This document shows positions 5,745 to 16,675 of a DNA stretch of 24,377 nt, piece by piece. The translations under genes were made by a program, and so were the position numbers. This stretch comes from an uncultured Candidatus Bathyarchaeia archaeon (lineage in GTDB: Archaea; Thermoproteota; Bathyarchaeia; 40CM-2-53-6; CAZAQQ01). Under the pieces are notes generated by a model. That model was not told the DNA's origin. It did no database searches and was given only the letters and a program-made list of their open reading frames with translations. How positions within the stretch are numbered: position 1 is the stretch's first letter; each line of letters starts with the position of its first letter. The stretch is from assembly GCA_964487485.1 (NCBI GenBank), contig CAZAQQ010000003.1, positions 1-24,377 of the forward strand. The letters are read 5' to 3'.

Positions 5745-6032
5745 CTAGGCAAACCTATCGCCGAAAACTTTGTAATCTTTCTCCAAAAAGTTAGATAGTT
5801 GTCTAGCTAAAATCTTTGTTGAAGACTTCGAGGCCGAAGTTCCTAGCATACTAAACTCATAATCGCACCTGGGGCACCGAACTCTAGGGCATCGAAGAAC
5901 AGACTGTTGGCAACCAACGCAGGCTACGGCTCTAGAGTAAAGGATTGAAAACCTAAATCCGCAGTTGGGACACTGCACAAGGTTCGTGACTTTCTTTGTT
6001 CTTCTTATTTCTTCGATTTCCCAAGGTTCCAA
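5745..6032 (-). CDS. Small Cys-rich (7 Cys) zinc-ribbon or Fe-S-like protein
   Basis: CPNC-x13-CVGC-x6-C-x4-CPRC. The start is moved to TTG 6032 because the track ORF (to 6203) overlaps the corrinoid gene on the other strand. Confidence 0.75.
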   Translation of the reverse strand: MEPWEIEEIRRTKKVTNLVQCPNCGFRFSILYSRAVACVGCQQSVLRCPRVRCPRCDYEFSMLGTSASKSSTKILARQLSNFLEKDYKVFGDRFA

Positions 6033-6099
6033 AACGGAAGCCAGCTCTGGAGCAAACTCTAATATATCTAGTAGGTTAAAGCTAAATCCGGCGATTATT

Positions 6100-6738
6100 A
6101 TGTCTTCTGAAAAGGAAATTCTTGAAAGGCTGAAAGCATCTGTGGCCGCAGGCGAGGAGGAAACTGCGGAGAGATTGGCTAAGGAAGCGCTCAGCAAGAT
6201 CAAGCCAACAAAAATCTTGGAAGCCGCGTCAGCGGGGATGGCAGTTATGGCGGAAAAGTACTCGCGTAACGAAGTATTTCTGCCTGAGGCTACTGTTACT
6301 ACAGCCGCTTTCTACAAGGCGTTTGAAGTCGTACAGCCTGCGATGAAGGAGGCTGCGCCGCCAAAGCTCGGTAAAGTAGTTATTGGAAGCGGCTTTGGGG
6401 ATGTGCATGATGTTGGAAAGAACTTGGTTAAAGTCATGCTAGAAGCAGCAGGGTTTGAAATCTATGATTTAGGACGTAATGTGACAGCTGAACAATTCCT
6501 AAACAAGGCGATGGAAATCAAGGCGGATATAGTAGCCATATCAGCCTTATACACGCCTACTGTCGTTGACATAAGGAGGTTTGTTAAGCTGCTGAATGAG
6601 AAAGGTGTCAAGGGCAAAATCAAAGTTATGATAGGCGGCGGCTCTACGTCGCCAGCGATTGCTGAAAGCCTAGGCATAACCTACGGAAAAGACTTGCATG
6701 ACGCAGTTTTGAAGGCCAAAGCCTTGGTGGGTAGGTGA
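6100..6738 (+). CDS. Methyltransferase cognate corrinoid (B12-binding) protein
   Basis: Four-helix cap followed by the DxHxxG motif (GDVHDVGKNLV), LEAAGFEIYDLGRNV, SALYTPT and IGGG. Real start ATG 6100 (212 aa); the track's N-terminal 45 aa overlap the opposite-strand gene. Confidence 0.93.
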   Translation: MSSEKEILERLKASVAAGEEETAERLAKEALSKIKPTKILEAASAGMAVMAEKYSRNEVFLPEATVTTAAFYKAFEVVQPAMKEAAPPKLGKVVIGSGFGDVHDVGKNLVKVMLEAAGFEIYDLGRNVTAEQFLNKAMEIKADIVAISALYTPTVVDIRRFVKLLNEKGVKGKIKVMIGGGSTSPAIAESLGITYGKDLHDAVLKAKALVGR

Positions 6739-6744
6739 GGGAGC

Positions 6745-7818
6745 ATGGCAAGTAAGGAGCTTTCTTCTTTCGACAGGATTGGGATGGCGGCAAGAGGGGA
6801 AGAACCGGATCGCGTGCCTATGGGTTGGCTTGGACACTTTGAGCAGGGAATTGCCCTGCCTAATGTGAAAGTGTTTGAGGTTGTGACTGACAAGTCAGGT
6901 CGAAGGCTCTTTCAAGGAATAAAGGCTGTTTTTGATCGTTACAACCCAGATGCAATCACTGTGTTCACTTACACAATCGTGGAAGCTGTAGCTATGGGAA
7001 CAAAGCCCAAGTATTATCCGGATATTCCGCCAGGTCCGTTTGAATATGTGGTGAAGGAGCCGAGGGATCTTGATTTGCTTAAGATTCCGGATCCTAGGTT
7101 CGATGGAGATTTGCCCTGCATATACAACGCCATAAGGCAGGTTGTGAAGGAGTATGGGGGCAGAGTACCTATCGCATCGAATACGACGGGGCCATGCGCA
7201 GTCGCGGCAAGGATCAGAGGCCTTTGGGAGTTTTGCTACGATATTATGAAGAGGCCTTGGTTTGCACATGACTTAATGGAGCATGCAACTCAAGCTTGCA
7301 TCAACATTATCAGCCACTACATACCCCTAGGCCTCACAGGAATAGGTTGGGGAGCGGGCTCTGAGACAACCATAAGCGCAGACCAATTCAGGAAGTTCGT
7401 GTTGCCCTATGACAGGAGATATGTTAGGGCAGCTAGAAAAATGGGTGTTTACAGCTTTACTAGGCATGTGTGCTCCGGCCCAAGCGCGCCCTACGTTGTC
7501 GATGCCTACACCGACATAGCGAGAGACGGGGCCTACACCATTTGGGGCCTTTTCGAGTCTCCTGAGGTTATGGCTAAGAAAAAAGAGCAGTTTCCAAAGC
7601 CAATCGTAACAGGAGGAGGCCCGAACACATCGCTCGTACAACTGGGCAAGCCTGCAGAAGTAGTAAACGAGGTAAAAAGATGGATCAAGACAGTGGCTCC
7701 TGGCGGGCGATACCTGTTCATAGGTGACTGCGGAATCCCACCTGCTGCAACACTTGAAAACGTAGACGCCTACGTAAAAACAGCGAAGGAAGCTGGAAAA
7801 TATCCGATAAAAATCTAG
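6745..7818 (+). CDS. UroD-fold cobalamin-dependent methyltransferase (MtaA/CmuA family, Zn-thiol type)
   Basis: EEPDRVP start, VEAVAMG, TTGP, H241-V-C243 and C329 (GDCGIPP...ENV) form the HxC...C zinc site; 6 nt downstream of the corrinoid gene. Confidence 0.88.
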   Translation: MASKELSSFDRIGMAARGEEPDRVPMGWLGHFEQGIALPNVKVFEVVTDKSGRRLFQGIKAVFDRYNPDAITVFTYTIVEAVAMGTKPKYYPDIPPGPFEYVVKEPRDLDLLKIPDPRFDGDLPCIYNAIRQVVKEYGGRVPIASNTTGPCAVAARIRGLWEFCYDIMKRPWFAHDLMEHATQACINIISHYIPLGLTGIGWGAGSETTISADQFRKFVLPYDRRYVRAARKMGVYSFTRHVCSGPSAPYVVDAYTDIARDGAYTIWGLFESPEVMAKKKEQFPKPIVTGGGPNTSLVQLGKPAEVVNEVKRWIKTVAPGGRYLFIGDCGIPPAATLENVDAYVKTAKEAGKYPIKI

Positions 7819-10072: not shown

Positions 10073-11833
10073 CTACCCGTGAAGAGCGCGTCTAACCTCT
10101 TCCCACTTTTTCTTTTGAGTAGCGAGCTTACATATCTGAACAGCGTTTCCCGGGTCTTTGCCATATACGAGGAGGCTTGCCGTTTCGGCGAAGGCCTTGT
10201 CCAAGGCACCTCCACCAACTCCAAATACAATGTCAACTCCCTCTTCCTTAAGTTTCTTAGCCGTTGCCACAAAGGCTGGCCTAGTAGTCGTCATCAGTGC
10301 AGAGCCAAGAACTGCTATGGGCTTGTACTTCTTAATCGCCTCGGCGACGGTTTCGGGAGGTACAGATTTTCCCAAGTCAATTACCTCGAAGCCGCTGGCG
10401 GAGACTATTGCTTTAACAATGTTTTTTCCTATGTCATGTACGTCGCCGTCAGCGCAGTGCACTAATATAGTGCCCAGCTTTTTCACAGCGGCCAGTTCTT
10501 CCTTGCAGACTGCTAGTCCAGCTTGCATAGCGGAATTAGCTAGTAGGATTTCAGGAACGTAGGCTAATCCCTCATTGTAAAGTTTACCCGCAGCTTGTAC
10601 CCCTGGCAGGAGACCTAGGTTCACGATGTCCACGCCTTTAGAGCCTTGTTTGAGAGCCTTCTCACAGAGCTGCCTAGTCTTGGTTTCATCTCCTCTAAGC
10701 ACAGCTTCAGAGATAGACCCGTAGGGTTCATCTTTGGGCATAATATCCTTTACTAACTGAAGAGGTTCTACGGCCCTAGCTTTGGGCGCCTCGGGCTTAG
10801 CTTCCAAGCCTACGGGTGCTCTTTCCTCAAGCTTGAACTTCTCAGCCACCTCTAAGAGCATCCTAATATTTTCCAGCGGAGTTCTAGGCGCTATTGTGCA
10901 TCCAGACGATAGGATGTCTATGCCTGCGCGCAAGGCTTTGAGAGATTCTCTTTCCACATCTGCTATCGAACCCTGGAGAAGAACTGAGACTGGCGCGATG
11001 TTTCCAACGAGCGATATCTTGTTTCCCACTACCTGCCTAGCATAGGCCACATCTACCTTTTCCTCGAATGAAAAACAATCCACGTCAGTTTCCGGGATAT
11101 ATTTCATGTGGCCGCTGGTATTTCCGCAGATATGGAGTACGCAGGGAACATCGATCTTGCTGAAGACTTTTTTGTGGGCTGGAGCTACAAGATCTCGGTA
11201 TGTGTCAGCGCTTATCAAATCGCCTGACGAAGTGGGATCGGAAATAGTGACTATGTCTACCCCTGACCTAGTGGCTGCGGATGCGAATTCCGTAGAAACG
11301 TAAGCCAGCTTATCCAGCGCTTCCTCCACTTTCTCCGGGTTTGTCTTCACCCAAGAGACAAACCTGTCTACTCCAAATACATGACCAGCAATTGTGAAAG
11401 GACCCGTAACTTTCACGGTAAGCGGGATCTTGTCTGAGACCTTTTCCCTCAGGATTTCAATGGCTTCCAAGGCTACGGGTATGCGTCCTTTTTCCACAAT
11501 CTTTTCCGGAATCTTGAGGTTATCTACGTCTTTGAATGCTGGCCCAAGCACTGAGGGAGTCCTATCCACACGTCCCTTATCTATTGGGCAGCCCAATGCT
11601 TCAGCTTCGACGCTAAGGCAAAAGGGTAGCGTCGTAGTTGGCAAGCCCGTTAACTCGTAGGTGGCCGCGGCAAGTCTAGCCATCTTCTCAGGATCCCAGT
11701 GGGCGTCGGGCCAGTAAGTCTTAGAAGCTTCCATGGCGTGAACTGTGGTAGCAACAACAGGGAGGTAAGCAGGAACCCTGTCTACCCTCCCGCCCAGGAG
11801 AGCTGAAAGGATTCTTCTTCTAGTTGTCAGCAA
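10073..11833 (-). CDS. Fused MtaA/CmuA-type methyltransferase (N-terminal) and MtaC-like corrinoid protein (C-terminal)
   Basis: Residues 1-333: LPFCLSVEAEALGC, GPFTIAGH, H234-I-C236, C312 (SSGCTIAPRTPLENI). Pro/Ala/Glu-rich linker. Residues ~365-586: cap helices, HCADGDVHDIGKNIV, GSALMTTT, GGGA. One uninterrupted 586-aa ORF. Confidence 0.92.
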   Translation of the reverse strand: MLTTRRRILSALLGGRVDRVPAYLPVVATTVHAMEASKTYWPDAHWDPEKMARLAAATYELTGLPTTTLPFCLSVEAEALGCPIDKGRVDRTPSVLGPAFKDVDNLKIPEKIVEKGRIPVALEAIEILREKVSDKIPLTVKVTGPFTIAGHVFGVDRFVSWVKTNPEKVEEALDKLAYVSTEFASAATRSGVDIVTISDPTSSGDLISADTYRDLVAPAHKKVFSKIDVPCVLHICGNTSGHMKYIPETDVDCFSFEEKVDVAYARQVVGNKISLVGNIAPVSVLLQGSIADVERESLKALRAGIDILSSGCTIAPRTPLENIRMLLEVAEKFKLEERAPVGLEAKPEAPKARAVEPLQLVKDIMPKDEPYGSISEAVLRGDETKTRQLCEKALKQGSKGVDIVNLGLLPGVQAAGKLYNEGLAYVPEILLANSAMQAGLAVCKEELAAVKKLGTILVHCADGDVHDIGKNIVKAIVSASGFEVIDLGKSVPPETVAEAIKKYKPIAVLGSALMTTTRPAFVATAKKLKEEGVDIVFGVGGGALDKAFAETASLLVYGKDPGNAVQICKLATQKKKWEEVRRALHG

Positions 11834-11927
11834 AATTGTTACCTTTCCCTGTTCCGCATATGAGCCACGAAGGCTTTTTATGCTTTTTCAAAAGTCGATT
11901 TTGGAATTTACTATCATAGGAGCAAGA

Positions 11928-11964
11928 GCTTTCTCTGAAAGCGATGACAGTTAGTTTTATAAAG
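11928..11964 (+). promoter_or_regulatory. Inverted repeat plus TATA box upstream of the ABC transporter operon
   Basis: GCTTTC-TCT-GAAAGC at 11928-11942 and TTTTATAAAG at 11955-11964, ~37 nt before ATG 12001, within the divergent intergenic region. Confidence 0.5.
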
Positions 11965-12000
11965 GCACTACTGGATAAACATCTTGCCGAGGTTTTATCA

Positions 12001-13347
12001 ATGTCGACTAAGCCAGTTTCCAGAAGGGAGTTCCTGAAATACGGAGCATTGGCTGCTGGAGCAGCAATAGTTGCAGGCGGAGCCGTATACTATGCTACGC
12101 GACCAGCACCACCTCCAGCTCCTAAGGCAGCGATTAAGATCGGTGACCTGTCAGGCAAAACTGGGGTCGGCGCGAACTGGGGACTGCACATGACTTTAGG
12201 CACGAAGTTGGCTGTTGACGAACTGAATGCAGCAGGAGGAGTCCTAGGTAGGCCTGTTGAAATCGTAACGGAAGACACCGCTTTGAGGGCTGATGTCGCG
12301 ATCAAGAAGGCAGAGAAATTGATCTTGGAGGATAAGGTAGCTGCTATTTTCGGGGTCCTCTCCAGCGGCGTTCAAAGAGCCGTGATAAAAGTCACGGAGA
12401 AATACAAGACGCTGCACTTCCTTTGTGTTGCATGCGCAGACTACTTTAGAACAGTGGACTTCCACAAGTATTTCTTCACCGTACATCAAGACGGCAGGAT
12501 GAGTCACAGAGCACTCGTCACATGGCTTGAGAAGGAATACAATCCAGACCCAACAAAGCTTTTGATAACCTATCAAGACTATGCGATGGGCTGGGCACAT
12601 GAAAGAGCCGTCAGGAAAATTTTCGAGCACGCATTTGGTAAGAAAGGAACGAACAAAGTGGCATGGCCTTTAGGGGCGAGAGATTTCACACCTTGGTTCC
12701 CGAAAATCAAGGAAATTGCCCCAGAATACTACCATAGCTCCACATGGGGAATGGATTCTATAACGCAGATAAGGCAGATGGGTGACTACGGTTTACTTAA
12801 GGGCCTAAAATCATTCACCGGGTCTTGTTGCATATACCTCACATCAGATCTAACTTTCTATGGTCCAACTGCCGACGGCACTGCCTTTCCGAAATACTGG
12901 GCCTATCCTTCTCCGAACAAGGAAAGCATCGACTTCCGAGACAAGTTCTTCGCCACATTCGGCCAAACGCCAAACCAAGCTTCTGCAGCCCACTACGAAG
13001 GGGTTAAGCTATGGGCAAAGGCTGTTGAGAAGGCCGGTACTACAGACCCGGATGCAGTGGTTGAAAAACTCGAGGGTATGGAATACACAGGTCCCCTAGG
13101 TCCCGGCGGCACCAAAGTCATGAGGAAAGAAGATCACGCAGCCATATTCGACAATCAGATAACACTGATCGACAAGGGAAAGGAAGTAGTAGTTGCCACC
13201 GTTGACGGTAAGGTATGTGCGGGTAAACCGATGCCTAAATTCCCAATTCCAGAAGGGAAAACCGTGGAAGATGCTATGGAAGCCGTGTATGACCAAGACT
13301 CCTACAAGCCCATGCCAGACATCAAGAAAGTGCGATATGAAGCATAG
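12001..13347 (+). CDS. Liv-type (PBP1) ABC transporter substrate-binding protein with a Tat signal/anchor
   Basis: MSTKPVSRREFLK twin-arginine motif, hydrophobic helix and Pro linker; IKIGDLSGKTG, NAAGGVLGRPVEIVTEDT, DYAMG, AGTTDPDAVVEKLEG. Start at ATG 12001 is favoured by the TATA position. Confidence 0.93.
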   Translation: MSTKPVSRREFLKYGALAAGAAIVAGGAVYYATRPAPPPAPKAAIKIGDLSGKTGVGANWGLHMTLGTKLAVDELNAAGGVLGRPVEIVTEDTALRADVAIKKAEKLILEDKVAAIFGVLSSGVQRAVIKVTEKYKTLHFLCVACADYFRTVDFHKYFFTVHQDGRMSHRALVTWLEKEYNPDPTKLLITYQDYAMGWAHERAVRKIFEHAFGKKGTNKVAWPLGARDFTPWFPKIKEIAPEYYHSSTWGMDSITQIRQMGDYGLLKGLKSFTGSCCIYLTSDLTFYGPTADGTAFPKYWAYPSPNKESIDFRDKFFATFGQTPNQASAAHYEGVKLWAKAVEKAGTTDPDAVVEKLEGMEYTGPLGPGGTKVMRKEDHAAIFDNQITLIDKGKEVVVATVDGKVCAGKPMPKFPIPEGKTVEDAMEAVYDQDSYKPMPDIKKVRYEA

Positions 13348-13380
13348 AAACCATTGATGCCCTTCGTCGATTGATAACCC

Positions 13381-14265
13381 TTGTTGGAATATGTCCTGAG
13401 GGTTATCCTCCCCTCTTTTTTTGACGGCCTAATACTAGGCGCATCCTTCGGCCTCGTAGCCCTAGGCCTTTCCATAATTTTCGGCATCACGGGTGTAATT
13501 AATTTTTCACACGGTGACTTATTCATGTTAGGGTCCTACATAGGTTTGACATTATTGTGGTCGATCTTGCCCAATTTCTGGATCTCAATTATTGTTGCTG
13601 CACTAGTTCTAGGGGCTATAGGAATAATGATTGAGCGTCTTATATGTAGACCCCTCTATGGCAAAGCTCCATTACTGATCTTCGTTGCCACATTTGGGTT
13701 AGCCCTATTTCTTCGAGAAGCCGCTAAACTAATCTGGTCGCCGAATCCGATATCGGTTGACGCGCCTTTGATTGGCCACATGTCTTTCGGGGTGTTCTAC
13801 TATCCGATTTACCGATTAGCAATTTTGATCATTTTCTCTATTGTTTACGCGAGCGTCTGGTTCTTCTTCAATAAGACGAAATATGGAGCTATTGTGCGTG
13901 CGGCTACTGAGAACAGTCAAATGCTCGCTTGCTTAGGAGTTAACGTGTCGCGCGTGAGGATGTTTACTTTTTCCCTTGCTTCAGCATTAGCGGCGGTTGG
14001 GGGGATGATAATGCTTCCTATAGCTAGCTTAAGCCCCGAAGCAGGAGCCTTAGTTATCCTGTGGTGTTTCTACATAATTGTTCTTGGCGGAATGGGCAGT
14101 ATCGGCGGCACCGTTTTGGCGGCTTTCGTAATAGGCGAAATATTTACCCTAGGCTCAGTTTGGTTGGAACCGAGGGAAATGGAAATTCTCGGCTTTCTAA
14201 TATTGATCACTGTGCTTATTGTGCGTCCCCGCGGATTCTTCGGTAAACCATTATTGTTGGAGTAA
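13381..14265 (+). CDS. livH: Branched-chain amino acid-type ABC permease (LivH family)
   Basis: GLSIIFGITGVINFSHGDLFMLG, TKYGAIVRAATEN, VLGGMGSIGG, VRPRGFFG. Confidence 0.93.
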   Translation: MLEYVLRVILPSFFDGLILGASFGLVALGLSIIFGITGVINFSHGDLFMLGSYIGLTLLWSILPNFWISIIVAALVLGAIGIMIERLICRPLYGKAPLLIFVATFGLALFLREAAKLIWSPNPISVDAPLIGHMSFGVFYYPIYRLAILIIFSIVYASVWFFFNKTKYGAIVRAATENSQMLACLGVNVSRVRMFTFSLASALAAVGGMIMLPIASLSPEAGALVILWCFYIIVLGGMGSIGGTVLAAFVIGEIFTLGSVWLEPREMEILGFLILITVLIVRPRGFFGKPLLLE

Positions 14266-14270
14266 CGATC

Positions 14271-15218
14271 ATGGGTGAAATTTCTAAGCTTCTCTCTCTT
14301 CCAAGAGTTTTCAGCTACCTAGTTCCGATAGCTGCGGCTCTAGGTGTTCCTTACCTCATGCCTACGTATTACGTTAGCCTCTTAGCTGATGCCTTCGCCT
14401 TGGCTCTGGTGGCGATGGGTGTGAACCTAATGCTGGCCTATGCGGAACTGCCTAGTTTCGGACATGCAGCTTTCTATGGAGTAGCGGCTTACGTAGTGGC
14501 CATGGCCTTTATGTGGCTCAAAATGCCTGTCTGGGCTTGTTTCGTTCTAGCAGTAATTGTTTCGCTGGGCTTAGGTTTGGCAATAGGTTCTTTCTCCATC
14601 AAGCGGCGGGGGATATATTTCGCAATAATCACACTCGTATCTGGGGAGGTAATTCACCGCATATTTTGGTATACAAGGGCTGTTGGAGGCTCTGACGGCA
14701 TGTCCTTTCCAAGGTGGTTCGAGCTGCGGCCAGGCTACTACTTTGTCCTAGCTCTCGTCTTGGTTGCTTGTCTACTATTCTTGGTTATTGGTAGTTCCCC
14801 GTTTGGGAAGGCGCTTAGGGCGATCGGCGAGAACGAAGTGAGGGCTAGGTTTGTCGGATACAATGTGGAACTCTACAAGAGGATTGCCTTTGTTCTCTCG
14901 TCTATCTTCCCAGCGTTGGGCGGAGCCTTCATTGCTGGGTACAGAGGCTTCGTGAATCCTTATCTAGCGTCAGTTCATATTTCTTCTGAAGCCGTGATAG
15001 CGACTCTAATTGGCGGCAGCGGAACCCTAATCGGGCCAATCCTAGGCAGTATTTTCCTAGTTTTTCTCATGGACATAGTGAGCAGCTACTGGGTCGGATA
15101 CCTTACCATTATCGGCATGGCAATAGTTCTAGTAATACTCTTCATGCCGCAGGGCACCATACCTCTCACTAGAGCACTCGTAAGCCCTCGATTGAGGAAA
15201 AGCAAGGTCAAGTTGTGA
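14271..15218 (+). CDS. livM: Branched-chain amino acid-type ABC permease (LivM family)
   Basis: SFGHAAFYGVAAY, GIYFAIITL, GGSDG, SPFGKALRAIGENE, IGGSGTLIGPILG, FMPQG. Confidence 0.93.
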   Translation: MGEISKLLSLPRVFSYLVPIAAALGVPYLMPTYYVSLLADAFALALVAMGVNLMLAYAELPSFGHAAFYGVAAYVVAMAFMWLKMPVWACFVLAVIVSLGLGLAIGSFSIKRRGIYFAIITLVSGEVIHRIFWYTRAVGGSDGMSFPRWFELRPGYYFVLALVLVACLLFLVIGSSPFGKALRAIGENEVRARFVGYNVELYKRIAFVLSSIFPALGGAFIAGYRGFVNPYLASVHISSEAVIATLIGGSGTLIGPILGSIFLVFLMDIVSSYWVGYLTIIGMAIVLVILFMPQGTIPLTRALVSPRLRKSKVKL

Positions 15219-15225
15219 TGTAGCA

Positions 15226-15963
15226 TTGGGCACCATTCTAGCAACGAGAGGCTTGACCAAGAATTTTGGTGGACTATCCGCCGTAAGCGATTTCGACCTC
15301 AGCGTCGAGCAGGGGGAAATAAGAGCAATAATAGGCCCAAACGGCGCTGGAAAAACAACACTTTTCAATTGTATGACAGGATTCTATCGGCCTGACGCTG
15401 GAAAAGTGTTGTTTAAGGGAGTAGACATAACTGGGCTTCCACCCCATAGAATTAGTAAGATGAATATCTCAAGAACATTCCAACTAACCAATATCTTCTT
15501 GAGATCTACAGTCTATGAAAATATTAGAGTGGCTCGGCAGTCGCGAATGAAGGGATTCGGCTTATTCTCCACGTCGGTTCCAGCCTATGAAGAGGAAGCA
15601 GCCAACATACTGAGGAAAATTGGTCTCTACGACCGTAAAGATGAGTTGGCTTGCAACCTATCCCATGGAGAGCAAAGACACTTGGAGATCGGCATAGCTC
15701 TCGCCACTAGCCCCGAGTTGTTAATGCTGGATGAGCCCACAGCTGGAATGAACCCCACGGAGGTAAAGGAAACCGTCAACACAATAAGGGAAGTGGCGAA
15801 AACTCTAGGCGTGACCGTCTTACTCATTGAGCATGATATGCGTGTCGTAATGGATATTTCAGACATGATAACTGTTATGCATCTGGGGAAAAAGATTGCC
15901 GAAGGAAAGCCTGAAGAAGTTAGAAAAAACGCAGAAGTAGTACGCGTGTACTTCGGGGGTTGA
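15226..15963 (+). CDS. livG: ABC transporter ATP-binding protein (LivG family)
   Basis: FGGLSAV, Walker A GPNGAGKTT, LSHGEQ signature, Walker B MLDEPTAG, LLIEHDM. Confidence 0.95.
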   Translation: MGTILATRGLTKNFGGLSAVSDFDLSVEQGEIRAIIGPNGAGKTTLFNCMTGFYRPDAGKVLFKGVDITGLPPHRISKMNISRTFQLTNIFLRSTVYENIRVARQSRMKGFGLFSTSVPAYEEEAANILRKIGLYDRKDELACNLSHGEQRHLEIGIALATSPELLMLDEPTAGMNPTEVKETVNTIREVAKTLGVTVLLIEHDMRVVMDISDMITVMHLGKKIAEGKPEEVRKNAEVVRVYFGG

Positions 15964-15967
15964 AGCT

Positions 15968-16675
15968 TTGCTGAAATTGAATGATGTACATGCCTATTAT
16001 GGCTTGAGCCATGTGCTTCAAGGAATATCCCTAGAGATAGGGGATAAAGAGATTGTAACCCTCCTAGGAAGAAACGGCATGGGAAAGACTACGACATTTA
16101 ACACTATTATGGGCGTTATCCAGCAAACTTCGGGCAACATCACACTTCAAGGTGAAGACATTAGGGGGCTACCTCCACATAAAGTAGCTAGAAAAGGCAT
16201 AGGCTACATACCTCAAGGAAAAATGCCATTTCCAACCCTGACCGTGCTGGAAAACCTATCCTTAGGCACAAGCAGCGTAGCAAAGGCAAGTAAGGAATTC
16301 ATTTCTGAAAAACTGGATGAGGTATATGAACTCTTCCCAATTTTAAAGGAGCGAAGACTGCAAAGGGCAATGACCCTGAGTGGCGGTGAGCAACAAATGC
16401 TAGCGATTGCACGAGCATTGATGGGTGAGCCTAAGCTTCTTCTGTTGGACGAGCCCAGTGAATCGCTGGCGCCCATAGTTGTAAGGCAAATTTTCGATAC
16501 TGTTCGCAAGCTACGCGAGAAGGGCAATACAGTATTCCTAGCCGAGCAAAACGTGAAGGGAGCTCTGGAGATTTCTGACCGTTGCTACGTCTTGGAGAAG
16601 GGAAAAATTGTTTTCGAAGGCAGTTCAAGAGAGGTAGAAAAGAGCGAGATAGCGAAGACAAGCTTAGGTGTCTGA
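15968..16675 (+). CDS. livF: ABC transporter ATP-binding protein (LivF family)
   Basis: Walker A GRNGMGKTT, LSGGEQQMLAIARAL, LLLDEPS, LAEQNV. Confidence 0.95.
   Translation: MLKLNDVHAYYGLSHVLQGISLEIGDKEIVTLLGRNGMGKTTTFNTIMGVIQQTSGNITLQGEDIRGLPPHKVARKGIGYIPQGKMPFPTLTVLENLSLGTSSVAKASKEFISEKLDEVYELFPILKERRLQRAMTLSGGEQQMLAIARALMGEPKLLLLDEPSESLAPIVVRQIFDTVRKLREKGNTVFLAEQNVKGALEISDRCYVLEKGKIVFEGSSREVEKSEIAKTSLGV

What the first reader, a model, noticed from the sequence alone, without database searches (positions are those of the whole stretch)
10073..11833. Single-chain MtaA-like/MtaC-like methyltransferase-corrinoid fusion with no MtaB beside it
Seen: an intact Zn-thiol methyltransferase domain (H234, C236, C312), a Pro/Ala/Glu-rich linker, then a corrinoid domain. 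That domain has features I recall as specific to the methanol corrinoid protein MtaC (His before the AxGDVHDIGKNIV motif, KP-x4-G-x-ALMTTT-x-x-AF, GGGA, L-VYG, terminal E-x-R-x3-H). Known: in methanogens MtaA and MtaC are separate and need MtaB. Natural fusions include bacterial CmuA (methyltransferase then corrinoid; chloromethane) and Methanosarcina MtsD/F/H (methyl sulfides). Inference: an archaeal CmuA-architecture enzyme built from methanol-pathway parts, possibly acting on methyl sulfides, methyl halides or methanol with a distant MtaB.
Basis: partly seen in the sequence, partly recalled or inferred. Interest (0 to 1): 0.8.

Follow-up and report, generated by a model that had tools for sequence, protein, structure and literature searches.

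The report
Fused B12 methyltransferase in archaeal methanogen
One gene in an uncultured sediment archaeon joins a zinc methyltransferase to its vitamin-B12 carrier protein; it is a new, independent fusion of a gene pair that is widespread but unstudied in methane producers, and it probably loads methyl groups onto coenzyme M without the methanol enzyme MtaB.

Summary
The ORF at 10073-11833 (-) encodes 586 aa. It has an MtaA-like zinc methyltransferase domain (H234/C236/C312), a Pro/Ala/Glu/Lys-rich linker and an MtaC-like, His-on corrinoid domain. No MtaB gene lies beside it, and none was found in the 82%-complete genome. Contigs from four public runs match it exactly, and two of them bridge the domain junction.

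Neither domain belongs to the true MtaA or MtaC clades, to CmuA (28% identity), or to the sizeable clade of MtaA-MtaC fusions that sit directly downstream of mtaB. Both domains branch at the base of an uncharacterised gene pair. That pair is a 355-aa methyltransferase plus its corrinoid protein, in DUF1847-MT-CP operons with a short RACo activase. The operons occur in Methanothrix, Methanoregula and Methanoperedenaceae. The genome also holds that activase type (47-48% identity).

MT-to-corrinoid fusions arose several times. The nearest other fusion (P0002) is independent (AU p=2.5e-11). The host is a Bathyarchaeia MAG with canonical-type MCR and a full Mtr operon.

The most likely role is a single-chain, MtsA/MtsB-style methyl-X:coenzyme M methyltransferase. 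The substrate is unknown, and methylated thiols are my best guess. I found no earlier scan report of this fusion on other DNA.

The parts
10073..11833 (-). Whole fused gene (586 aa plus stop), protein P0001
   Evidence: ORF list and translation; domains; identical contigs in 4 public runs
10829..11830 (-). N-terminal MtaA/CmuA-family (URO-D fold) methyltransferase domain, residues 2-335
   Evidence: NF004889 at 365 bits and TIGR01463 at 353 bits, both above cut-off; MtaA equivalog 343 below its 400 cut-off; 4ay7 MtaA 252 bits; sits in a 19-row clade with the MT355 proteins, support 100/98
11126..11134 (-). H234-I-C236, the first two zinc ligands
   Evidence: Position check; aligns with VLHICGN of MtaA 4ay7
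10898..10900 (-). C312, the third zinc ligand (SSGCTIAP)
   Evidence: Position check; aligns with GCGIAP of MtaA 4ay7
10718..10828 (-). Pro/Ala/Glu/Lys-rich interdomain linker, residues 336-372
   Evidence: Composition. It aligns with the C-terminal tail of the separate 355-aa methyltransferases and the N-terminus of their corrinoid proteins, with about 35 residues deleted
10502..10714 (-). B12-binding_2 helical cap, residues 374-444
   Evidence: Pfam PF02607 at 53.8 bits
10190..10471 (-). B12-binding Rossmann domain, residues 455-548
   Evidence: Pfam PF02310 at 72.7 bits; MtaC 2i2x_B at 163 bits; sister to the corrinoid proteins of the triad operon, support 97/92
10427..10444 (-). D464-V-H466-D-I-G469, the His-on cobalt ligand motif
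   Evidence: Regex and position check. CmuA lacks this motif
11834..11943 (.). Divergent intergenic region between the fused gene and the Liv-type binding-protein gene
   Evidence: Sequence read: Shine-Dalgarno-like GGAAAGGT and an A/T-rich box. No gene, and no MtaB, lies upstream
11944..16675 (+). Context only: Liv-type ABC importer (binding protein, 2 permeases, 2 ATPases), transcribed divergently
   Evidence: Pfam. A functional link is not shown. The binding protein is only 24% identical to the one beside the Hadarchaeum fusion
5965..7818 (+). Context only: separate corrinoid protein (257 aa) plus a divergent URO-D methyltransferase (357 aa), a possible methyl donor module
   Evidence: Pfam and NCBIfam. 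No orthologue of this methyltransferase lies next to other fusions

Best explanation
The gene encodes a single-chain, corrinoid-dependent methyl-X:coenzyme M methyltransferase of the MtsA/MtsB kind.

Origin. It arose by fusion of two adjacent, translationally coupled genes. These are a 355-aa zinc methyltransferase and its roughly 255-270-aa corrinoid protein. They belong to an uncharacterised DUF1847-MT-CP operon family, with a short RACo/RamA-type activase, found in Methanothrix, Methanoregula and Methanoperedenaceae.

Proposed cycle.
1. The RACo-type activase on contig C68 reduces the domain-bound cobamide (His466-on) to Co(I).
2. The N-terminal domain methylates Co(I) from a small methyl donor. 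This is most likely a methylated thiol such as methanethiol, DMS or a methylthio-carboxylate, handled at the same zinc site.
3. The corrinoid domain swings on the 37-residue linker.
4. The zinc-activated thiolate of coenzyme M takes the methyl group. The resulting methyl-CoM feeds the organism's MCR.

Shown here: the domain identities, the catalytic residues, the phylogenetic placement of both domains, the lack of MtaB in the assembled genome, and the presence of the matching activase, MCR and Mtr. Inferred: CoM as acceptor, one domain doing both half-reactions, and the identity of the donor.
For: Both domains place congruently at the base of the triad family. The MT domain falls in a 19-row clade with support 100/98. 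The corrinoid domain is sister to the triad corrinoid proteins with support 97/92. Identities are 52-55% (MT) and 43-50% (CP) to triad pairs, against 37% and 40% to an MtaB-linked fusion.

Triad operons carry no MtaB- or MttB-type MT1. They consist of DUF1847, MT and CP with 4-nt overlaps, and in two of the three operons examined a convergent short RACo. The nearest other fusion, P0002, has the same context.

The genome holds a short RACo that is 47-48% identical to the triad type. Its other RACo is only 24-26% identical.

The HxC...C zinc site and DxHxxG are intact.

MCR and a complete mtr operon lie on contigs that fall compositionally within the bin. So CoM chemistry is plausibly present.

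No MtaB was found.

There is a precedent for one zinc methyltransferase doing both half-reactions with a corrinoid partner: MtsA/MtsB and the fused MtsD/F/H, as summarised in bioRxiv 10.1101/548461 and PMC7374477.
Against: No member of the triad family has been assayed. 'MtsA-like' is an analogy, and I could not include M. barkeri MtsA/MtsB or M. acetivorans MtpA/MtpC sequences in the trees.

DUF1847 is conserved and translationally coupled in the triad. It is not found in this genome. If it is the substrate-activating subunit, the model is incomplete.

The genome is 82% complete, so MtaB or DUF1847 could be unassembled.

This is the only MtaA-type CoM methylase found in the assembly. The genome also has MttB plus corrinoid proteins. 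That fits a shared MT2 role at least as well as a self-sufficient one.

McrC was not found. The MCR contig is short and has scaffold gaps, so mis-binning is not excluded.
Confidence: 0.45

Rival explanations
1. MT2-plus-carrier hub. The corrinoid domain is methylated by one or more separate MT1 enzymes, and the MtaA-like domain only passes the methyl group to CoM. Candidate MT1s are the divergent URO-D enzyme at 6745-7818, with or without its own corrinoid protein, or MttB on contig C103. The MT domain may also demethylate free corrinoid proteins.
For: It is the only MtaA/MtbA-type domain among 3 URO-D hits in the assembly. The genome also has MttB+CP and further corrinoid proteins that need an MT2. 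A CP plus URO-D pair lies 2.3 kb away. In M. acetivorans the fused MtsF co-purifies with MtpA/MtpC and is proposed as their MT2 (bioRxiv 10.1101/548461). The MtaB-linked fusion clade shows that a fused MtaA-CP can serve an external MT1.
Against: The protein's own family travels without any recognisable MT1. No orthologue of the neighbouring URO-D enzyme lies beside other fusions. MttB has its own corrinoid protein gene.
Confidence: 0.28
2. Methanol:CoM methyltransferase whose MtaB gene is simply unassembled or distant.
For: The corrinoid domain lies in the wider MtaC-type superclade, support 100/100. Its best NCBIfam equivalogs are MtaC and MtaA. The genome is 18% incomplete. Many MtaA-MtaC fusions do pair with MtaB.
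Against: The protein is excluded from the MtaB-linked clade in the MT tree (AU p=4.9e-7). In the CP tree the clade of true MtaC plus MtaB-linked fusions is starred at 97/96 without it. Its closest relatives have no mtaB in their operons. No MtaB was found by HMM or tblastn. Its MtaC HMM scores (187-205) are lower than those of the MtaB-linked fusions (242-257).
Confidence: 0.08
3. CmuA-like halomethane:corrinoid methyltransferase (chloromethane dehalogenase).
For: Same domain order as CmuA. Above the cut-off of the shared TIGR01463 subfamily model.
Against: Only 28% identical. CmuA sits on a long separate branch in both quick trees. CmuA lacks the DxHxxG His ligand that this protein keeps. CmuA scores 456 on TIGR01463 but only 109 on the CoM-methyltransferase model NF004889, where this protein scores 365.
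Confidence: 0.03
4. Soluble methyl-H4MPT:CoM methyltransferase that bypasses membrane Mtr, as proposed for CmtA/MtsF. Alternatively, a non-energy role, such as methylation or demethylation of thiols or metalloids.
For: MtsF/CmtA has been proposed to move methyl from methyl-H4MPT to CoM (bioRxiv 10.1101/548461). The genome has H4MPT-linked Mtr. The triad occurs in methanogens that are not known to grow on methyl compounds (established knowledge).
Against: No pterin-binding domain is present. There is no direct evidence here. The domain order and the clade both differ from CmtA.
Confidence: 0.07

Closest known systems
MtsA/MtsB methylthiol:CoM methyltransferase of Methanosarcina barkeri
   Same: A URO-D-fold zinc methyltransferase plus a corrinoid protein of roughly 28-30 kDa, with no MtaB/MttB-type MT1. 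One methyltransferase does both half-reactions (PMC7374477; 10.1101/548461). JGI labels the 355-aa relatives 'methylthiol:coenzyme M methyltransferase'.
   Different: Here the two proteins form one chain. The sequence relationship to MtsA/MtsB could not be tested, because no reference sequence was obtainable with these tools. The substrate is unknown. Relatives carry an extra DUF1847 gene.
Uncharacterised DUF1847-MT(355 aa)-CP operon with short RACo, in Methanoregula, Methanothrix and Methanoperedenaceae (P0012-P0055; loci L120, L122, L142)
   Same: Both domains are the nearest relatives of this pair (52-55% and 43-50% identity; support 100/98 and 97/92). A matching short RACo is in the genome. 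No MtaB.
   Different: The genes are separate there and fused here, with about 35 residues of the corrinoid protein's N-terminus lost. DUF1847 is not found here. This copy branches outside the crown group. The host is a Bathyarchaeon.
CmuA chloromethane methyltransferase/corrinoid fusion (Methylorubrum extorquens CM4, pCMU01)
   Same: Domain order is methyltransferase then corrinoid. Both pass the TIGR01463 subfamily model.
   Different: 28% identity and a distant branch. CmuA lacks the DxHxxG His ligand. CmuA passes the methyl group to H4folate through CmuB (established knowledge).
MtsD/MtsF/MtsH (CmtA) fused corrinoid/methyltransferases of Methanosarcina acetivorans
   Same: A single chain with a corrinoid domain and an MT2-type domain, linked to methyl-sulfide use.
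   Different: Opposite domain order. A Methanolobus homologue reads B12 then URO-D. These are separate fusion events.
MtaA + MtaC + MtaB methanol:CoM system (PDB 4ay7, 2i2x)
   Same: Best solved-structure matches for both domains. The zinc site, His-on motif and several MtaC motifs are conserved.
   Different: Below both equivalog cut-offs. Outside the MtaA clade and outside the clade of MtaC plus MtaB-linked fusions. No MtaB found.

Membership tests
MtaA/CmuA methyltransferase subfamily (TIGR01463 / NF004889) | HMM score above the curated cut-off | tested here: met
   353.4 against cut-off 235.4, and 365.1 against 244
MtaA/CmuA methyltransferase subfamily (TIGR01463 / NF004889) | HxC...C zinc-thiolate site | tested here: met
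   H234, C236 and C312 align with MtaA 4ay7
MtaA sensu stricto (NF040654 equivalog) | Score above the equivalog cut-off and placement in the MtaA clade | tested here: not met
   343.5 is below 400. Six Methanosarcinaceae MtaA equivalogs form a separate clade, and identities to them are 32-38%
MtaC sensu stricto (NF040655 / NF040669 equivalogs) | Score above the equivalog cut-off and placement with true MtaC | tested here: not met
   187 and 204.6 are below 420 and 450. MtaC plus the MtaB-linked fusions form a starred clade (97/96) that excludes it
MtaC sensu stricto (NF040655 / NF040669 equivalogs) | Cognate MtaB encoded beside it or in the genome | tested here: not met
   None in the window. 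None in the 82%-complete genome by HMM or tblastn
Corrinoid methyl-carrier proteins (B12-binding_2 + B12-binding) | Cap plus Rossmann domain with the DxHxxG His ligand | tested here: met
   PF02607 and PF02310. D464-x-H466-x-x-G469
CmuA | Methyltransferase-then-corrinoid order in one chain | tested here: met
   Colinear tblastn match to CmuA of pCMU01
CmuA | Membership of the CmuA sequence clade; corrinoid domain without the His ligand | tested here: not met
   28% identity. Long separate branch. CmuA has no DxHxxG, and this protein has it
MtsD/F/H-type fusions | Corrinoid domain N-terminal, methyltransferase C-terminal | tested here: not met
   The Methanolobus fusion has B12 at 32-221 and URO-D from 299. 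The order here is the reverse
MtsA/MtsB two-component methylthiol:CoM system | Zinc methyltransferase plus corrinoid partner working without a separate MT1 | tested here: inconclusive
   No MT1 gene lies beside it or in its relatives' operons. Activity was not assayed, and the genome is incomplete
MtsA/MtsB two-component methylthiol:CoM system | Sequence orthology to M. barkeri MtsA and MtsB | not tested
   No MtsA or MtsB reference sequence could be obtained with the tools. Only JGI's automatic label on relatives is available
DUF1847-MT355-CP operon family with short RACo (uncharacterised) | Both domains group with the family's MT and CP | tested here: met
   MT clade 100/98. CP clade 97/92
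DUF1847-MT355-CP operon family with short RACo (uncharacterised) | Short RACo-type activase of the family's type in the genome | tested here: met
   The C68 RACo is 47-48% identical to the operon-linked RACos. The C24 RACo is 24-26% identical
DUF1847-MT355-CP operon family with short RACo (uncharacterised) | DUF1847 gene immediately upstream | tested here: not met
   A divergent ABC binding-protein gene lies upstream. No PF08901 hit in the 82%-complete genome

The most novel reading that the evidence does not exclude
The fused protein and its unfused relatives may define a widespread, MtaB-independent route for methylating coenzyme M from a substrate class not yet recognised. The relatives are the DUF1847-MT-CP operons with a short RACo in Methanothrix, Methanoregula and Methanoperedenaceae. 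DUF1847 may be a new substrate-activating or metal-handling subunit. If so, methanogens regarded as strictly acetoclastic or hydrogenotrophic, and this MCR/Mtr-bearing Bathyarchaeon, would have a hidden methyl-dependent input to methane. The Bathyarchaeial single-chain form works without DUF1847, which would make it the minimal version of the system.
Probability: 0.2. Interest if true: 0.7.

Novelty: new variant of a known kind. Interest (0 to 1): 0.42.

Why it matters
Corrinoid methyltransferases decide which methylated compounds become methane. This protein shows that the common 'MtaA/CmuA family' or 'mtsA' labels hide at least three distinct MtaB-less MT+CP lineages and one MtaB-linked fusion lineage. 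Fusion of the two genes has happened repeatedly.

The single-chain form is a convenient one-protein handle for assaying an unstudied family. That family occurs in abundant environmental methanogens (Methanothrix, Methanoregula, Methanoperedenaceae). Here it occurs in a rare Bathyarchaeia genome carrying canonical-type MCR and Mtr.

If the substrate proves to be methylated sulfur compounds or something new, methane source budgets for freshwater sediments would need an extra term. If it is only a shared MT2, the finding is an ordinary annotation refinement.

Tried and rejected
1. The search for related loci with the whole protein was swamped by the DVHDIGKN B12 motif. It gave no close relatives.

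2. A Liv-type ABC importer lies beside both this gene and the Hadarchaeum fusion. The binding proteins are only 24% identical, so I treat the resemblance as coincidence.

3. I asked whether the neighbouring CP plus URO-D module (5965-7818) is a conserved partner. No orthologue lies beside any other fusion or triad locus.

4. The apparent McrB-McrG fusion ORF and the short McrA on C90 are artefacts of two 100-N scaffold gaps. They are not real features.

5. In-frame TAG codons in a Methanomethylicota homologue are a TAG-TAG double stop between separate, in-frame MT and CP genes. They are not recoding.

6. The TIGR01463-type MT plus CP pairs of Methanolapillus and Methanimicrococcus were tested as possible MtsA/MtsB orthologues. 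They occur in gut methyl-reducers, and the scan returned no Methanosarcina locus. Their identity stays open.

7. The arsenic-demethylation lead from earlier notes concerns Methanosarcina mtaB transcription. It has no bearing here.

8. Literature searches found nothing for DUF1847 and nothing specific on MtaA-like genes of Methanothrix or Methanoregula. The mlp clusters of Kountz and Balskus (PMC10418091) are a different gene set.

9. The ComA search was negative. It is uninformative, because the M. acetivorans control also lacks ComA.

10. No structure or complex prediction was run. The fold is not in doubt, and docking would not separate the rival explanations.
Full report
**Observation**

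The minus-strand ORF at 10073-11833 is intact and encodes 586 residues from a TTG start. A GGAAAGGT box precedes the start, within a 110-bp intergenic region shared with a divergently transcribed ABC binding-protein gene.

Pfam finds URO-D (residues 4-332), B12-binding_2 (374-444) and B12-binding (455-548). NCBIfam places the N-terminal domain above the cut-offs of the MtaA/CmuA and methylcobalamin:CoM methyltransferase subfamily models. It falls below the MtaA equivalog cut-off (343 against 400). The C-terminal domain is nearest the two MtaC equivalogs but far below their cut-offs (187 and 205 against 420 and 450).

Against solved structures, the domains match M. mazei MtaA (4ay7, 252 bits) and M. 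barkeri MtaC (2i2x_B, 163 bits). The residue numbers H234, C236, C312 and H466 are correct. The 37-residue linker is rich in Pro, Ala, Glu and Lys.

No ORF in the window is an MtaB. The Pfam MtaB model finds none in the genome. tblastn with four MtaBs taken from fusion loci also finds none. The genome is 82% complete.

Contigs assembled independently from four sediment metagenome runs match with no difference. Two of them bridge the domain junction. The fusion is therefore not a frameshift artefact of one assembly.

**Host**

EF-2 is up to 87-88% identical to MAGs labelled Bathyarchaeia. The genome is the only representative of its family among the species genomes held, and the nearest genomes are only same-order relatives.

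It carries mcrB, mcrG and mcrA on contig C90. McrA scores 755 bits against the canonical equivalog model (cut-off 768). It is 89% identical to another Bathyarchaeota MAG, 83% to a Nezhaarchaeota MAG and 79% to a Methanomethylicota MAG. A complete mtrDCBA-F-G-H operon plus a DUF2114 gene lies on C122.

McrA was found in 1 of 105 genomes of the order. C3 and C90 sit inside the compositional core of the bin. McrC was not found, and C90 has two 100-N scaffold gaps. Hou et al. 2023 (PMC10321748) report a single Bathyarchaeia MAG with this 'group II' MCR. The host is therefore plausibly a rare Bathyarchaeial methanogen, with mis-binning not excluded.

**Relatives of the protein**

Searches of two very large protein collections found no close homologue. 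The best hit is P0002 at 48% identity. After it come about 25 same-architecture proteins at 35-39%, and many stand-alone 354-355-aa methyltransferases that are 51-56% identical over the MT domain. These stand-alone proteins come from Methanothrix, Methanoregula and Methanoperedenaceae.

Gene context splits the relatives into distinct systems.

1. Fusions from Hadarchaeum, Armatimonadota and other bacteria lie directly downstream of an mtaB gene in all four contexts examined.
2. The 355-aa methyltransferases ('MT355') lie in a conserved set. It reads DUF1847, MT, then a corrinoid protein of 253-273 aa, joined by 4-nt overlaps. In two of the three operons examined a convergent short RACo-type activase follows. 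An SsuA/NMT1-type ABC transporter and a PaaK-like ligase are often nearby. There is no mtaB.
3. P0002 has the context of system 2, with MT and CP fused.
4. A Methanofastidiosa-type fusion clade has RACo nearby (P0015). Where the upstream region is on the contig (P0023), it holds no mtaB.
5. Gut methyl-reducing methanogens have yet another MT (372 aa) plus CP (274 aa) overlapping pair.

**Domain trees**

A careful maximum-likelihood tree of 82 MT domains puts this protein in a 19-row clade with support 100/98. The clade consists of two Rokubacteria proteins, this protein and the MT355 crown (100/99). P0002 is nested inside that crown beside an unfused protein (98/90).

Forcing this protein together with the MtaB-linked fusions is rejected (AU p=4.9e-7). 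Forcing it together with P0002 is also rejected (AU p=2.5e-11). The MtaA and MtbA equivalogs of three Methanosarcinaceae genomes, labelled with NCBIfam, form separate clades. They are 32-38% identical to it.

A careful tree of 51 corrinoid domains mirrors this. This protein is sister (97/92) to the corrinoid proteins encoded downstream of MT355, together with P0002's domain. True MtaC and the MtaB-linked fusions form a separate starred clade (97/96).

CmuA, fetched from pCMU01, is colinear with this protein but only 28% identical. It sits on a long separate branch and lacks the DxHxxG motif. An MtsD/F/H-type fusion from Methanolobus has the opposite domain order.

At the junction, the linker aligns with the C-terminal tail of MT355 and the start of its corrinoid protein. 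About 35 residues are lost. This is what a fusion of two overlapping genes would leave.

MT-then-CP fusion has therefore arisen independently in at least five places in this data set. This protein is its own event.

**Supporting parts in the genome**

Of two RACo/RamA-type activases, the short one on C68 is 47-48% identical to the operon-linked activases. The long one on C24 is 24-26% identical. DUF1847 was not found.

Only three URO-D-family hits exist in the assembly. This is the only MtaA-type one. An MttB-family gene with its corrinoid protein and further corrinoid proteins are present.

**Interpretation**

The best-supported reading is a single-chain methyl-X:CoM methyltransferase of the MtsA/MtsB kind. 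The domain-bound cobamide is reduced by the C68 activase and methylated at the zinc methyltransferase domain. It is then demethylated by zinc-activated CoM, and the methyl-CoM goes to MCR.

The donor is not known. Three points favour a methylated thiol. The family lacks any MT1. The zinc-thiol site is intact. MtsA/MtsB and MtsD/F/H provide a precedent. No member of the family has been assayed, and DUF1847 is unexplained.

The main rival is that the protein is a shared MT2-with-carrier served by separate MT1 enzymes. This draws weight from its being the only CoM methylase found in a genome that also has MttB. Methanol through an unassembled MtaB is weakened by both trees and by context. A CmuA-like halomethane role is unlikely.

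**Novelty and score**

Fused corrinoid/methyltransferases and MT1-less MT+CP systems are known kinds. Public annotation already calls the relatives 'MtaA/CmuA family' or 'mtsA'. What is new is:

- the placement of this fusion as an independent event at the base of an uncharacterised methanogen operon family;
- its occurrence without DUF1847;
- its host.

This is a modestly interesting variant with a useful experimental handle. It is not a new category.

Noticed in passing
G000 contigs C90 (L001:1050-4585) and C122 (L172:13-5396): This Bathyarchaeia MAG carries canonical-type mcrBGA and a complete mtrDCBA-F-G-H operon followed by DUF2114. McrA is 89% identical to another Bathyarchaeota MAG and 83% to a Nezhaarchaeota MAG. 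McrA was found in 1 of 105 genomes of its order, and McrC was not found. The apparent McrB-G fusion and the short McrA are 100-N scaffold gaps. Hou et al. 2023 report only one such Bathyarchaeia MAG.
   Followed up: partly
L112:4808-8029, L114:6618-9746, L116:4366-7845, L117:4616-7776: In Hadarchaeum, Armatimonadota and other uncultured bacteria, a clade of MtaA-MtaC fusion proteins lies directly downstream of mtaB. This gives a two-gene methanol methyltransferase system. In the bacteria the thiol or other acceptor of the MtaA-like domain is unclear.
   Followed up: partly
L120:5363-9379, L122:5363-9348, L142:6462-8883: A conserved set of genes occurs in Methanoregula and related methanogens. 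It reads DUF1847, a 355-aa MtaA-like methyltransferase and a corrinoid protein, translationally coupled. In L120 and L122 there is also a convergent short RACo, an SsuA/NMT1-type ABC transporter and a PaaK-like ligase. I found no paper on it, and DUF1847 has no solved relative.
   Followed up: partly
L145-L148 and L161 (Methanolapillus ohkumae chromosome 867953-899340): Five tandem copies, about 6.3 kb apart, of a 372-aa TIGR01463-type methyltransferase. In the related Methanolapillus millepedarum this gene overlaps a 274-aa corrinoid protein gene. The same methyltransferase is found in Methanimicrococcus, Methanomassiliicoccaceae and Methanomethylophilaceae.
   Followed up: no
G000 contig C103 (L003:3267-5368): A corrinoid protein gene is followed by an MttB-family gene of 479 aa. 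It reaches the cut-off of the pyrrolysine-type trimethylamine methyltransferase model (528.7 against 525), yet it is an uninterrupted ORF with no in-frame TAG. GlcD-like and HdrD-like (CCG) genes lie next to it.
   Followed up: no
G000 contig C68 (L174:2305-7923): The short RACo-type activase is 47-48% identical to those of the MT355 operons. It lies convergent to an ABC transporter gene set and abuts the contig end, so its own neighbourhood is incomplete.
   Followed up: partly
L141:1331-10079 (Rokubacteria MAG): The bacterial proteins closest to this methyltransferase clade have no corrinoid gene nearby. They sit among two HcyBio (homocysteine-biosynthesis) genes, a molybdopterin oxidoreductase, ferredoxins and an HdrD-like CCG protein. 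This hints at a different, sulfur-linked role.
   Followed up: no
window 5965-7818: A second module: a 257-aa corrinoid protein, then 6 nt later a divergent 357-aa URO-D methyltransferase with HVC at 241-243. It is at most 28% identical to any methyltransferase collected here. No orthologue lies beside other fusion loci.
   Followed up: partly
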